Assembly: GCA_964016885.1 (NCBI GenBank)
Contig: OZ024741.1
Coordinates: 284,084,001 to 284,148,000, forward strand
Direction: 5' to 3'
From: Eledone cirrhosa
Taxonomy: Eukaryota
DNA: 64,000 nt
The translations under genes were made by a program, and so were the position numbers. The notes beneath the pieces are model-generated. The model saw only the letters and a list, made by a program, of their open reading frames with translations. It was not told where the DNA came from and searched no databases. Below are positions 2,900-64,000 of this stretch, piece by piece. How positions within the stretch are numbered: position 1 is the first letter of the stretch; each line of letters opens with the position of its first letter.

Positions 2900-3127
2900 A
2901 TGTATGTATATATATATATGTATATATATATATATACATATGTATGTCTATATATATATATATATATATACATATGTATGTATACATATATATATATATA
3001 TATATATATATATATATATACATATGTATGTATACATATATATATATGTATGTATACATATATATATATATATACATATGTATTTATATATATATATATA
3101 TATATACATATGTATGTATATATATAT
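2900..3127. repeat. (TA)n/CATATG-TATG compound microsatellite at the left edge of the cluster
   Basis: Directly visible. Confidence 0.95.
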
Positions 3128-3382
3128 TCATCATCATCATCATCATCGTTTAACGTCCGTGTTCCAAGCTTGCATGGGGTTGGACGGGAGTTTTCCCACT
3201 TGAGGCAAGAGTGATTGTCTTGCTCGCGTAGGACTGTCTGGCGGGTTTTCTACAGCTGGATGCCCTTCCTAACACCAACCACATTTACAGTGTGGGGCTG
3301 GGAGGTTTTTACCGTGTTGCCTACACGGCCACATTACAGTGTGGACTGTGTGTTTTTTTGTCATGACAACTACACGATCTCA
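3128..3382 (-). mobile_element. RTE family A, 3' UTR-only fragment with (GAT)n tail
   Basis: (cat)n-cgtttaacgtccgtgttcc...ggatgcccttcctaacaccaacc matches the 3' UTR of the full-length copies at 38027-42690 and 44232-48088. Confidence 0.9.
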
Positions 3383-3608
3383 TTATATGTATGTATATAT
3401 ATATATTATATATATATATATATTTGTTTAGCAAGATTCTTTATCTGAAATCGTGTGTTGAAACCGATATTGCTATACTTTGGGAGGGTCATGTTGCCAA
3501 TAAGAAACACACGCACCACTTGCTTTCACTTCAATTTATTATATATTAATAAATTTATAAATTTCTGGTTGGTTGGTTGGTTCCACAACCAGATAGTTGT
3601 TTATATAT

Positions 3609-3653
3609 AGTCATAGTTCTTTCGTCACACACTCTGTGACCTCTTCAGTGACT
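3609..3653 (-). ncRNA. Minimal type I hammerhead ribozyme (PLE-1 left arm)
   Basis: Reverse complement of 5619-5663. Confidence 0.8.
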
Positions 3654-4590
3654 GGGGATTCCTTTTTTTCTTTCTGTGCCTCTCCTTTGTTCTGTCCTAC
3701 GCCATTTTGTTTCTGTGTGTGCGTTGTGTGCTCAGTCTGCGCATGCGCCACATCCGGGTGTCTGTGTGTGTTTATGTTCATTTATCTATTTGTTTATTTA
3801 CATGTTACTGGTTGGTTGTTTGTTCTATGTGTGTGTGTGTTTTAATTTTGTCCTTAATTGTAAGTTGTGATGTTGCTGTTCCACTCATATTTTCTATTTA
3901 ATTTTGGTTGTAATTCTTTTATGTTTATTGCCTCTGTAATTTGTCTAAACATTGCGTCTTTTCTGTGTGTAGATTCTATTTTTATTTCTATGTTCTCTAA
4001 TTTACCCTTGTGTTCTATCTTAGCATATTGGTAGAGTACAGATGATTCTTTATTATCTTGAAGGTCTCGCCAGTGTTCATTTATCCGTTCCCCTACACTA
4101 CGAGCTGTCTCACCTATGTACACTATATTTTTGTCTCTACATTGTCCTTCAGTACATCTTATACTATACACTACATTTCTAATTTTACAGTTAATATGGG
4201 GGCTTATTTTACAGGTTACACATTTCTTATCTATACATGAGGGTCTTTGAAAAGGGTATGTCTTGCTAATAAGTGTTTTTACGGAGGAACCTGGTCTTTC
4301 TACTATCTTAATATTGAGTTTATGTTTATTTAGGGCCCTTCTAAATTTGTAAGCTAGTTCACCTCTAGGGGTTGTATCGATGAACATTACACTCTGGTAT
4401 TTATTGCTATCATACCATGAGTTTATTCTATTAGCCTTGTTCCTAGTTCTTTCTATTCTATTCCAAAATTTGCTCCTATACAAGGGGCAGGTCCCATTTA
4501 TGTCATTATTTACCATTTTTTCCCATTTGGTTCTGGCTCCTTTTGGTTCTGACACATTTCTCATCACCCGTACCAAATCCGCAATCATAC

Positions 4591-60195: not shown

Positions 60196-61758
60196 TATCC
60201 ACTTCCACCTCTTTTAAAGCTCGTCTCTATAATCATCATTCATCTTTCAAATACAAACTTAAAAGAACTAACACTGCTCTCTCAGAACTCATATGGTCCT
60301 TAAAAGACAAAAACATTAAATATAACATCTTTTGGAAAAAGATTTCTTCTGCATCCTCGTACTTGAACAGTTCTCTATCTAAAATCTGTAATCTCTGCCT
60401 AAATGAAAAATTTACCATTATCTCTAACCTAGAATCCATAATAAATAGACGCTCGGATTTGTTTTCCATCTGCCTCCATAAATTCCATAGAACTTTTCAC
60501 AAAGTATACAGTTAATATTCAATTCTTTATCAATTTAGAATCTTTTCTCAAAGGCACATATACATACACCTCTTTAAAATATACCCATCTACCTTACTTT
60601 AAAGGGCATTATACACTCTATAGTACTCGTTTATTCATTTACCTCATCCTATCTTCTTGTAAAACAATAACATTTGTTTTTGACATTTTGAATATTCATC
60701 CGCAATCATTATTATTTTTTTTTTTTTTTTTTTCCCTCTATCATAAATCTTTTTAATCTCAATTTCATCCTTAATTTATTATTATATATATTTGTTTAAT
60801 ATATACTCATATATTCTTTAAAATATACCCATCTACCTTACTTTAAAGGGCATTATACACTCTATAATACCCGTTTACTCATCACCCTCATTATATCTCT
60901 TCGTAAAACAATAACATTTGTTTTTGACATTTTGAGTATTCATCCGCAATCATTATTATTTTTTCTCTCTATCATAAATCTTTTTAATCTCAATTTCATC
61001 CTTAATTTATTATTATTTTTTTCTCCCCATCAACGAACTCATTATTAATACATATGAATTCAATATAAAAACTTTAACTTCACATTATTTTTCTCAAATC
61101 CTATACATAAACATTTTCTCTTTGCTAATTTTAAGATTCCTACATTTCTCCTTTTGAATATTCACCCACAATTATTATTTATTTTTTTTTTTTCTCTCTA
61201 TCTCCATACATAATCTCCCTTCGTTATTTTTTTCTCTCTATCTCCATACATAATTTCCCTTCGTTAATTTTCAAATTCCTTTAATTTACACATTATCTTC
61301 CAACGGTTCCCAACCTCTCTATATTAAAACATTATATCTTTTTCTCAGTTATAAAAACTATCTCTTTCTCTCTATCACCCATCTCTCCCTTTCCACCTTC
61401 ACTCTCATCTCCTCCCCTTTTTTTCATCCTTTCCACCCCCACCCCTCCCTAAATATAATATATTTTTTCCTTGCACATATCCTCCCTTCGTTAATTTTCA
61501 AAAATTTTTAATTTATACAGTATCTTCCAACGGCTTTCAACCCCTCTATATAAAATATATCTCCTCTCTGTTATAAAAACTATCTCTTTCTCTCTATCAC
61601 CCATCTCTCCCTCTCATCTCCTTCCCTTTTCATCCTTTTCTCTCTAAATAAAATATTTTTCCCAATATCACACATCAATCTAAAACCACTTTTCATATGT
61701 TGATTTAAAACTGCACTATCAACAAGTGTTTTTTTAGCCTTCATATCATGTTCTCCTG

Positions 61759-61825
61759 TTTTATCTGATGAAAACACAAATATTATTGTTTGATGATGTT
61801 TGTTTTTGAAATGCGCATAATAAAA
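61759..61825 (+). ncRNA. Hammerhead ribozyme motif (PLE-6 right arm)
   Basis: TTTTAT-CTGATGA-[AU-rich stem II]-GAAA-TGCGCA-TA^-ATAAAA; 6-bp stem I, palindromic stem III. Confidence 0.7.
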
Positions 61826-61950
61826 TATATTGAACTCCTTTAACCATCTTTTGATCTTATATTATGCATACTCCAGTCCCACAAACTGTAGAGTGCTTTT
61901 TATCCGATATCTGCATTGCTTTATTGTACTACAATAAAACTCACCTCCTA

Positions 61951-63140
61951 CATATATATGTATATATATATATATGTATATATATATATATGTATATATA
62001 TATATATGTATATATATATATATGTATATATATATATATGTGTATATATATATATGTGTATATATATATATGTATATATATATGTATATATATGTATGTA
62101 TATATATGTATATATATATATGTATATATATATATGTATATATATGTATATATATATATGTGTATATATATATATGTATATATATGTATATATATATATG
62201 TGTATATATATATATGTGTATATATATATATGTGTATATGTATATATATGTATATATCTATATATATATGTATATATATATATATGTATATATATATATA
62301 TGTATATATATATATATGTATATATATATATATGTATATATCTATATATATATGTATATATATATATATGTATATATATATATATGTATATATATATATA
62401 TGTATATATATATATATGTATATATCTATATATATATATGTATATATCTATATATATATGTATATATCTATATATATATGTATATATATATATATATGTA
62501 TATATATATATATGTATATATCTATATATATATGTATATATATATATATGTATATATATATATATATGTATATATCTATATATATATGTATATATATATA
62601 TATGTATATATATATATATGTATATATATATATATATGTATATATATATATATATGTATATATATATATATATGTATATATATATATATATGTATATATA
62701 TATATGTATATATATATATATATGTATATATATATATATATGTATATATATATATATATATGTATATATATATATATATGTATATATATATATATATGTA
62801 TATATATATATATATGTATATATATATATATATGTATATATATATATATATGTATATATATATATATATGTATATATATATATATATGTATATATGTATA
62901 TATATGTATATATGTATATATATGTATATATGTATATATATGTATATATGTATATATATGTATATATGTATATATATATGTATATATGTATATATATATA
63001 TATGTATATATATATATATATATGTATATATATATATATATATGTATATATATATATATATATATGTATATATATATATATATGTATATATATATATATA
63101 TATGTATATATATATATATATATGTATATATATATATATA
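61951..63140. repeat. 1.2-kb (TA)nTG microsatellite lacking CATATG units
   Basis: Directly visible; occasional TC variants. Confidence 0.95.
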
Positions 63141-64000
63141 TCATCATCATCATCATCATCAACGTTTAACGTCCGTGTTCCACGCTTGCATGGGTTTGGA
63201 CGGGGGTAGTCCCACTTGAGGCAAGAGTGATTGTCTTGCTCGCATAGGACTGTCTGGCAGGTTTTCTACAGTTGGATGCCCTTCCTAACACCAACCACAT
63301 TTACAGTGTGGGTCTGGGAGGTTTTTACCGTGTTGCCTACACGGCCACATTACAGCGTGGACTGTGTGTTTTTTTGTCGTGACACCTACACGATCTCATT
63401 TGTTTCGGCCCGGATGGCGCGGCACCAACATAACTTTACATAGGACGGGGTGGTGTGGATGGGGTGGGGGTGGTGGTGGTGGGACGGGGTGTATTTTGTT
63501 AGAGATGCCTACTGGCAAGGCGGGTCTTCTCTGTTACTGAGTACCGCCAAAGGTCTCGGTCCAGTGACATTGTCTTGGAGAGGTGTAAGTGTGTGAGGTC
63601 GGAGTTTATCAGCTCGTCCCAGGTTTTTCTAGGTCTGCCTATTCCGTGGCTACCGTCTATCTTTATTGCCCTGCACTTTGTTATACAGCTATCGACTTTC
63701 ATGCGCATCACGTGTCCATACCAACGTAGCCTTCTCTCGAGTAAACAACATCTGATCCCTCTTATCTCTAATTTTTTCCTTAGTTCGTTTATGCTTTGCC
63801 GTTCACGTATATTACTGTTACACATCCAGCGGAGCATGCAAGCTTCGTTCCTCTCTAGTCTGCGTATATCCTCTGCACACAATGCCCAGGTCTCACTGCC
63901 ATGCAACATTGCTGTTCGTATGCAGGCATCGTACAACCTGCCTTTCATTTTTAGGGAGAACCCTTTAGCAGCTAATAGTGGTATAAGCTCTCTGAACTTT
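63141..64000 (-). mobile_element. RTE family A 3' part (continues beyond the window)
   Basis: ORF 63499-63948 ending TRLASRHL*; family A 3' UTR and (GAT)n tail. Confidence 0.92.

What the first reader, a model, noticed from the sequence alone, without database searches (positions are those of the whole stretch)
2900..64000. Multi-superfamily retroelement cluster built entirely inside (TA)n microsatellite
Seen: more than 35 inserts from RTE (3 families), CR1, PLEs, a SINE and a non-autonomous RTE derivative, nearly all flanked on both sides by TA tracts, with none clearly inserted into another element's body. The left edge at ~2.9 kb is sharp. Known: (TA)n preference is reported for some PLE clades and some non-LTR families. 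Inference: unrelated endonucleases (APE and GIY-YIG) share one target, and the tract regrows after each insertion, so the locus is a self-renewing sink or safe harbour.
Basis: partly seen in the sequence, partly recalled or inferred. Interest (0 to 1): 0.7.

Follow-up and report, generated by a model that had tools for sequence, protein, structure and literature searches.

The report
Retroelement arrays inside TA microsatellites
Dozens of unrelated jumping genes lie end to end here, separated only by TA repeats that likely come from one old repeat tract; such arrays recur in this TA-rich, probably octopus, genome, likely because these elements all cut at short TA runs, and similar arrays are known from plants.

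Summary
In detail: 35 inserts between 2.9 and 64 kb, 34 of 35 spacers with (TA)4+, none nested. Five are copies from a local tandem duplication, so 30 are independent. The array runs on to an assembly gap at 82.5 kb. TA preference belongs to the families, genome-wide: (TA)4 follows 3' ends in RTE-A 20/30, RTE-B 18/25, CR1 22/25, PLE 23/25 and 19/19, against 9.7% background and 2/28 for a control SINE. About 6% of the genome is (TA)n, so cutting at any ATAT to ATATAT already predicts 69-90%. One interruption motif marks 23/24 tracts here and 6/121 elsewhere, so tracts from 2.9 to 58 kb likely descend from one tract. Arrays with other motifs occur on another chromosome. Two empty/filled paralogous sites show no TA gain on insertion, so 'regrows after each insertion' is unsupported. 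Safe harbour was not tested. Precedents: plant SaTar arrays, TA-targeting Hydra/Naiad PLEs, the RTE Tn-TA signature. The scan earlier noted the PLE/hammerhead side elsewhere in this genome. New variant of a known kind.

The parts
2482..2898 (.). Single-copy fold-back of flank DNA centred on (CATA)n(TA)8(TATG)n; left boundary of the array
   Evidence: about 90% identical arms; single-copy depth, 0 differences in short-read contigs
2899..58391 (.). TA spacers (10.4 kb) sharing the palindromic interruption TACATATGTA; likely one ancestral tract
3128..3383 (-). RTE-A 3' fragment with (GAT)n tail
3424..5801 (.). PLE1, C-terminal GIY-YIG with CX4CxxC linker, inverted arms plus tail
5853..9442 (+). 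PLE2, Hydra-clade PLE, 5'-truncated, minimal hammerhead-like motif near 9360
9859..10414 (+). Element Y, non-autonomous, C2H2-like remnant near the 3' end
11546..12555 (-). RTE-A 5'-truncated
14154..14535 (.). Fragment of a 615-bp tandem monomer (retrozyme-like, inferred)
14639..14967 (.). Fold-back plus tail stub (PLE-type end, inferred)
15267..16933 (-). RTE-B 5'-truncated
17098..17796 (.). Inverted arms of a 519-bp multimer-forming element (retrozyme-like, inferred)
17820..18517 (-). RTE-A 5'-truncated
18767..18820 (-). RTE-A 3' tip
19733..20175 (+). Element Y
20185..21847 (-). RTE-C 5'-truncated; only 9 bp of spacer to Y
22272..24693 (+). RTE-B 5'-truncated
25266..27637 (-). RTE-A with a 1.3-kb internal deletion
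27919..28322 (.). Unclassified 404-bp insert, hammerhead-like motif near 28067
28679..31553 (+). RTE-C
31173..37381 (+). Copy 1 of local tandem duplication (RTE-C tip, RTE-B tip, X222, Y, SINE) with a later RTE-A at 32301-36274
31574..31625 (-). RTE-B 3' tip
32068..32281 (.). Unclassified repeat fragment X222
32301..36274 (-). RTE-A, open 1030-aa frame (APE, RT, PHD), inserted after the duplication
36336..36732 (+). Element Y
37014..37327 (-). SINE: tRNA-like head (by eye), middle like RTE-B 3' UTR, 3' end like RTE-C
37382..44232 (+). Copy 2 of the duplication (five duplicated inserts) with a later RTE-A at 38027-42690
   Evidence: 2 differences in 1387 bp
38027..42690 (+). Longest RTE-A copy, 1109-aa open frame (APE, RT, PHD)
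44233..48086 (+). RTE-A, second subfamily
49012..52415 (.). PLE3, RT plus GIY-YIG, inverted terminal arms
52533..55310 (+). RTE-A 5'-truncated
55798..55986 (.). Fold-back plus tail stub
56399..58319 (+). CR1-type LINE, 5'-truncated, (TAAAAGAG)n tail
58392..61951 (.). 1.67-kb fold-back plus tail (PLE-type structure, inferred); lies in tracts without the motif
61952..63141 (.). TA tract with TG interruptions only (second tract lineage or region)
63142..64000 (-). RTE-A, continues to 65.8 kb; array continues to a gap at 82.5 kb

Best explanation
This is a real, non-nested array of retroelements separated by TA repeats, likely built by repeated insertion into one long compound TA tract by families that each likely nick and prime at short TA/AT runs. 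Shown: the TA preference of RTE-A, RTE-B, CR1, two PLE families, Y and the SINE outside this locus; the shared tract motif; two insertions made after a local duplication; similar arrays elsewhere. Inferred: each family's own endonuclease (APE or GIY-YIG) cuts at TA steps and target-primed reverse transcription starts with 1-2 nt of AT/TA overlap between tail and target. An insertion splits the tract and leaves target on both sides, while element bodies are poor targets, so elements stack without nesting. Slippage keeps changing tract length independently of insertion, and tandem duplication adds copies. No long-repeat recognition and no special property of this locus is needed.
For: 3' ends with (TA)4 within 30 nt: RTE-A 20/30, Y 16/25 (23/25 counting TATG runs), background 1930/20000; CR1 22/25, PLE1 23/25; PLE2 19/19; RTE-B 18/25, SINE 7/12 readable, control SINE 2/28 with ordinary target duplications. 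5' ends: RTE-A 14/19, CR1 13/18, RTE-B 5/8, SINE 14/25. (TA)4+ is 6.0% of 390 kb sampled; a cut at any ATAT, ATATA or ATATAT scores 69, 82, 90%. Motif in 23/24 window tracts vs 6/121 random; facing tract ends more alike than shuffled, p 0.006 and 0.0014 at k 16 and 20. Other arrays with their own motifs. APE catalytic positions align with L1; 6-bp duplication at an off-target RTE-B insertion. Literature: TA-step signature of RTE LINEs (PMC6007223, PMC13295347), TA targeting of Hydra and Naiad PLEs (PMC8557442).
Against: No nicking or priming was measured. Family samples are the first hits on C1 (PLE2: best-scoring copies), several share an array, and PLE1 ends include both ends of some insertions, so they are not independent. 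RTE-C and PLE3 had no dedicated flank test. The facing-end test was weak at k 12 (p 0.064) and whole-tract similarity did not fall with distance (p 0.44). Junction TA runs here are longer than a plain split predicts (9.7 vs 5.2 units). The motif stops at about 58 kb, so the array is at least two tract regions. No long reads were available.
Confidence: 0.68

Rival explanations
1. Long TA tracts extrude hairpins or cruciforms, are nicked by host or other elements' nucleases, and unrelated reverse transcriptases prime at these breaks.
For: Tracts are self-complementary (91-97% paired when folded, trivial for TA); a single-copy fold-back sits at the left edge; the RTE-A at 38027 landed in the longest pure run of its tract; junction runs are long in this array; AT/TA cruciform cleavage is described in yeast and human work (search listing only).
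Against: A 4-6-nt motif already predicts the observed rates; many targets are short (median under 40 bp of tract on the 3' side); the control SINE is not captured (2/28); RTE-A keeps its APE and 3' tails; no junction excess in 2 of 4 other arrays.
Confidence: 0.14
2. Each insertion itself regenerates TA on both sides (large target duplication, stutter or RT-added TA), making the locus a self-renewing sink (first reader; like maize TAFTA as cited in PMC5907723).
For: 10.4 kb of motif-bearing TA remains after about 29 insertions; private higher-order units in three tracts; at one site the pure run is 44+3 units filled vs about 35 empty.
Against: Whole-tract lengths at two empty/filled paralogous sites: 442 vs 192+257 and 79 vs about 71-76; sister tracts without insertion differ by 12-65 bp anyway; a 4.4-kb tract without recognised insert exists on C1. 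Only two RTE-A sites were testable; PLE sites were not.
Confidence: 0.1
3. Part of the array is an assembly mis-join across TA tracts, or the duplication is two haplotypes laid in tandem.
For: Array ends in a scaffold gap; near-identical duplicated blocks; motif change at 58 kb; short-read contigs could not bridge the duplication junction.
Against: Mis-joins would mix tract motifs, yet 23/24 share a rare one; the duplication junction is a novel join inside RTE-C; the two copies carry different RTE-A insertions and differ at 2 bases.
Confidence: 0.06
4. TA tracts are seeded by the elements' own tails, or random insertions outside TA were purged.
For: 3' ends score slightly higher than 5' ends for CR1.
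Against: Truncated 5' ends are also TA-flanked and both sides share locus-specific motifs; empty paralogous sites already hold the tract; the control SINE persists outside TA.
Confidence: 0.02

Closest known systems
SaTar arrays of guayule, rice, sorghum, citrus (Valdes Franco et al. 2018, PMC5907723; parts 1, 3, 4 of 6 read)
   Same: Linear arrays of unrelated elements joined by TA microsatellite, none interrupting another; empty TA sites at related loci.
   Different: SaTars are MULE DNA transposons in arrays of a few kb; here retroelements of RTE, CR1, PLE and SINE types in an animal, tens of kb, with tract motifs that mark one ancestral tract.
Hydra-clade and Naiad/Neptune Penelope-like elements (Craig et al. 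2021, PMC8557442; passages and section 11 read)
   Same: (TA)n targeting, inverted plus tail structure; PLE2 has the Hydra motifs.
   Different: Covers only the PLE part; the paper passages do not describe mixed arrays with LINEs.
RTE-clade Tn-TA insertion signature (PMC6007223, PMC13295347; passages read)
   Same: RTE endonuclease proposed to cut at TA, with the 3' microsatellite tail influencing the site and 1-2 nt overlap.
   Different: There the target is complex DNA with 10-12-bp duplications; here about 70% of copies are in (TA)n. A T-stretch upstream was not tested.
RTE-2_OV of Octopus vulgaris (Petrosino et al. 2022, PMC9115989; passages read)
   Same: Octopus RTE with a 1109-aa frame, EN and RT; same length as the stop-to-stop frame at 38865-42194.
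   Different: Described with a C2H2 finger; RTE-A has a PHD finger after the RT core. Sequence not found in the 8 supplement files searched (4 not searched), so identity is untested.
MuTAnT and other plant TA-targeting MITEs (PMC4486113; passages read)
   Same: TA microsatellite as proposed safe haven.
   Different: Single DNA-transposon family.

Membership tests
SaTar-type array | Elements flanked by microsatellite on both sides | tested here: met
   34 of 35 spacers with (TA)4
SaTar-type array | Unrelated elements, none interrupting another | tested here: met
   a nested case exists outside the array
SaTar-type array | Elements are MULEs with TIRs and 9-10-bp duplications off target | tested here: not met
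   coding inserts are RT elements; works like SaTar, is not SaTar
Hydra-clade PLE (PLE2) | RWK-type, DKT, CxCX5C linker, CxxC and CxH near the C-terminus, C-terminal GIY-YIG | tested here: met
   963-aa copy shows RWR, DKT, CNCRVSANC, CNLC, CPH; GIY-YIG E 1.6e-4; definitions
Hydra-clade PLE (PLE2) | Insertion in (TA)n | tested here: met
   19 of 19 3' ends
Hydra-clade PLE (PLE2) | Phylogenetic placement with Hydra families | not tested
   no reference sequences in hand
Neptune/Nematis-type PLE (PLE1, PLE3) | CX2-5CxxC linker before a C-terminal GIY-YIG | tested here: met
   read from translations; Pfam gave no GIY-YIG hit for these two; clade not resolved
RTE clade (RTE-A, B, C) | Single ORF with APE plus RT, no ORF1, 3' microsatellite tail | tested here: met
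   for RTE-A; B and C by 66-77% DNA identity and RT/PHD hits
RTE clade (RTE-A, B, C) | RT phylogeny inside the RTE clade | not tested
   clade name rests on structure and recalled motifs
CR1 clade (56399-58319) | CR1-type RT motifs and short tandem 3' tail | tested here: inconclusive
   RVT_1 hit, octamer tail; clade motifs recalled, no tree; its APE was not seen in this truncated copy
Bipartite non-autonomous RTE (element Y) | 5' and 3' parts match an autonomous RTE | tested here: inconclusive
   no similarity to RTE-A/B/C; C2H2-like remnant; parent not found
Retrozyme (519-bp and 615-bp monomers) | Tandem multimers with a hammerhead ribozyme | tested here: inconclusive
   multimers seen; my motif scans and Rfam found no hammerhead in these fragments

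The most novel reading that the evidence does not exclude
In this octopod genome, LINEs of two clades, several PLE clades and their dependants have converged on (TA)n, and tract growth and insertion feed each other. A large share of recent genome growth would then be organised as clonal, non-nested arrays in which each tract's interruption motif works as a lineage barcode, letting one order insertions, duplications and slippage without population data. Long pure runs or palindromic tracts may be super-targets shared across endonuclease types.
Probability: 0.3. Interest if true: 0.62.

Novelty: new variant of a known kind. Interest (0 to 1): 0.4.

Why it matters
It extends microsatellite-guided, non-nested stacking of mobile elements from plant DNA transposons to animal retroelements with unrelated endonucleases, and shows strong TA bias in a CR1-type LINE, for which my searches found no report. 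It gives a plain explanation for TE hotspots and assembly gaps in octopus-like genomes. The tract motifs and empty/filled paralogues make tract dynamics testable within one assembly. The mechanism may be ordinary: a 4-6-nt preference in a genome that is 6% TA.

Tried and rejected
DNA search of the genome with the RTE-A 3' end returned nothing because common words are skipped; patterns were used instead. A PLE2 3' pattern matched only this copy, which carries a private base; a protein search replaced it. Rfam: 0 hits at gathering score; at E 0.5 the 150 rows shown were low-complexity miRNA matches, 483 not shown. Short-read contigs could not test the duplication junction, as reads are cut at the repeat; runs X2-X4 match the flank without differences and may be the source sample, so they are not independent and gave no empty allele. 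No long reads were offered. Local duplication as the source of the 99%-identical RTE-A and RTE-B pairs: rejected, copies elsewhere are as close. The 17098-17796 fold-back as a DNA-transposon MITE: rejected, it forms tandem multimers. Junction TA-run excess as a general rule: mixed. Identity of RTE-A with RTE-2_OV: untestable. PMC12220107, PMC10294476, PMC5786205 (passages) and PMC13282606 (parts 1-2 of 3) said nothing on TA targeting by LINEs in what I read.
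Full report
Setting. The window lies at 284.08-284.15 Mb of a 416-Mb scaffold in a 3.0-Gb genome. The host is probably an octopod: the only named row among the 120 listed homologues of the RTE-A frame is an Octopus bimaculoides protein at 66% identity. This is inference.

Observation. TA tracts, self-BLAST, Pfam and junction reading give 35 inserts and 35 spacers from 2899 to 64000; 34 of 35 spacers hold (TA)4 and no insert interrupts another. Coding inserts are three RTE-like families with APE, RT and a PHD finger, one CR1-type LINE, and three PLEs. 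PLE2 meets the Hydra-clade motif definition. The rest are a SINE whose 3' end matches RTE-C, element Y whose parent was not found, and fold-back or multimer stubs. In 80 kb upstream and 120 kb downstream, the array continues to 82,523 and ends at a 200-N gap before a 73-bp satellite.

The target belongs to the families. Exact end patterns occur 13,222 (RTE-A), 10,886 (RTE-B), 22,792 (Y), 3,582 (CR1), 24,983 (PLE1 ends) and 1,384 (SINE) times. Scoring (TA)4 within 30 nt of the 3' end in all loci returned: RTE-A 20/30, Y 16/25, background 9.7%; CR1 22/25, PLE1 23/25; PLE2 19/19 further loci; RTE-B 18/25, SINE 7 of 12 readable of 25. 5' ends that fell inside the loci: RTE-A 14/19, CR1 13/18, RTE-B 5/8, SINE 14/25. 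A second abundant SINE served as control: 2 of 28 readable 3' ends (40 hits), with ordinary target duplications at ATTAT sites. It is older than the test families, which limits the control. Most samples are first hits on C1 and partly share arrays, so they are not independent; 39 stretches spread over the large scaffolds showed the same flanks by eye.

A short motif is enough. (TA)4+ makes up 6.0% of 390 kb sampled. A cut at any ATAT, ATATA or ATATAT would score 69%, 82% or 90%. RTE (38/55, 69%) and CR1 (88%) fall in that range; PLEs need six or more. RTE LINEs are reported to cut at TA with tail overlap (PMC6007223, PMC13295347; passages) and Hydra/Naiad PLEs to target (TA)n (PMC8557442). RTE targeting is loose: an RTE-B sits inside an RTE-A body 15 kb upstream with a 6-bp duplication.

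One ancestral tract. The interruption TACATATGTA occurs in 23 of 24 window tracts of 60 bp or more and 6 of 121 random tracts. Tract ends facing each other across an insert are more alike than shuffled (p 0.064, 0.006, 0.0014 for k 12, 16, 20; duplicated tracts left out), though whole-tract similarity does not fall with distance. From 58 kb on the motif is absent. The same logic holds elsewhere: of seven hit-dense C1 regions, picked for density, at least five show arrays with their own recurring motif, and extension shows runs of about 55, 38 and 20 kb (output partly cut). This array is large but not unique. Only 1 of 39 random 10-kb stretches had three TA-bounded inserts in a row (lower bound, library limited to this window's families).

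Duplication as an internal experiment. 31173-37381 and 37382-44232 are tandem copies: four blocks, 2 differences in 1387 bp, closer to each other than to any sampled copy, with a join inside RTE-C. Each copy later took an RTE-A at a different tract, so each is the other's empty site. Lengths are 442 empty vs 192+257 filled, and 79 vs about 71-76 depending on how 5' overlap is assigned. Sister tracts without insertion differ by 12-65 bp. Slippage is therefore fast and independent of insertion; insertion-triggered regrowth is not seen at these two RTE-A sites. Against a clean negative: the pure run at one site is 47 vs about 35 units, and junction runs exceed a plain split in this array and two others but not in two more. 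Read error in long TA runs may blur all lengths.

Assembly. No long reads were offered. Short-read contigs confirm the left flank and fold-back at single-copy depth but cannot bridge TA. Motif continuity argues against mis-joins from 2.9 to 58 kb.

Known systems. The architecture, unrelated elements in uninterrupted arrays joined by TA, is published for plant MULEs as SaTar (PMC5907723; parts 1, 3, 4 read), including the idea of tract expansion after insertion; 'safe haven' is proposed in PMC4486113 (passages). Nine searches found no report of mixed LINE/PLE arrays in TA in cephalopods or of TA-biased CR1; subscription papers, Repbase entries and unsearched supplements may hold it. Earlier scan notes in this genome cover the PLE and hammerhead side; none was returned for the LINE array wording or for this place.

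Verdict. Real, larger than the window, an extreme case of a genome-wide pattern with a probably ordinary mechanism. New variant of a known kind; interest 0.4.

Noticed in passing
window 32796-35888, 38865-42194, 44737-47697 and other RTE frames: All three RTE families carry a PHD finger just after the RT core; many of 812 homologues have the same RT+PHD pairing. One search found no paper on it. A chromatin-targeting role is conceivable and untested.
   Followed up: partly
window 2482-2898: Single-copy fold-back centred on (CATA)n(TA)8(TATG)n; its palindromic centre has the same form as the array's tract motif and may have seeded it (speculative).
   Followed up: partly
L002-L006 (window-relative 82,724 to about 120,600): 73-bp satellite, over 36 kb, directly after the scaffold gap.
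   Followed up: no
L020 (window-relative -80,000 to -71,760): At least 13 tandem copies of a 615-bp monomer ending in a TA tract; a fragment of it lies in the array at 14154-14535.
   Followed up: no
L014 (window-relative -15,418 to -14,116): RTE-B nested in an RTE-A body with a 6-bp duplication.
   Followed up: yes
window 38027-38858: The 5' end of the longest RTE-A holds a 297-bp perfect direct repeat, 536 bp apart.
   Followed up: no
window 9859-10414; L051-L075: Element Y (22,792 exact end matches) also uses (TATG)n tracts and ends in a C2H2-like remnant; its autonomous partner is unknown.
   Followed up: partly
C1 about 38-48 kb and 331-343 kb (L294-L295, L298-L299): A roughly 10-12-kb element with about 3-kb mirror-image ends occurs twice inside TA arrays; not classified.
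   Followed up: no
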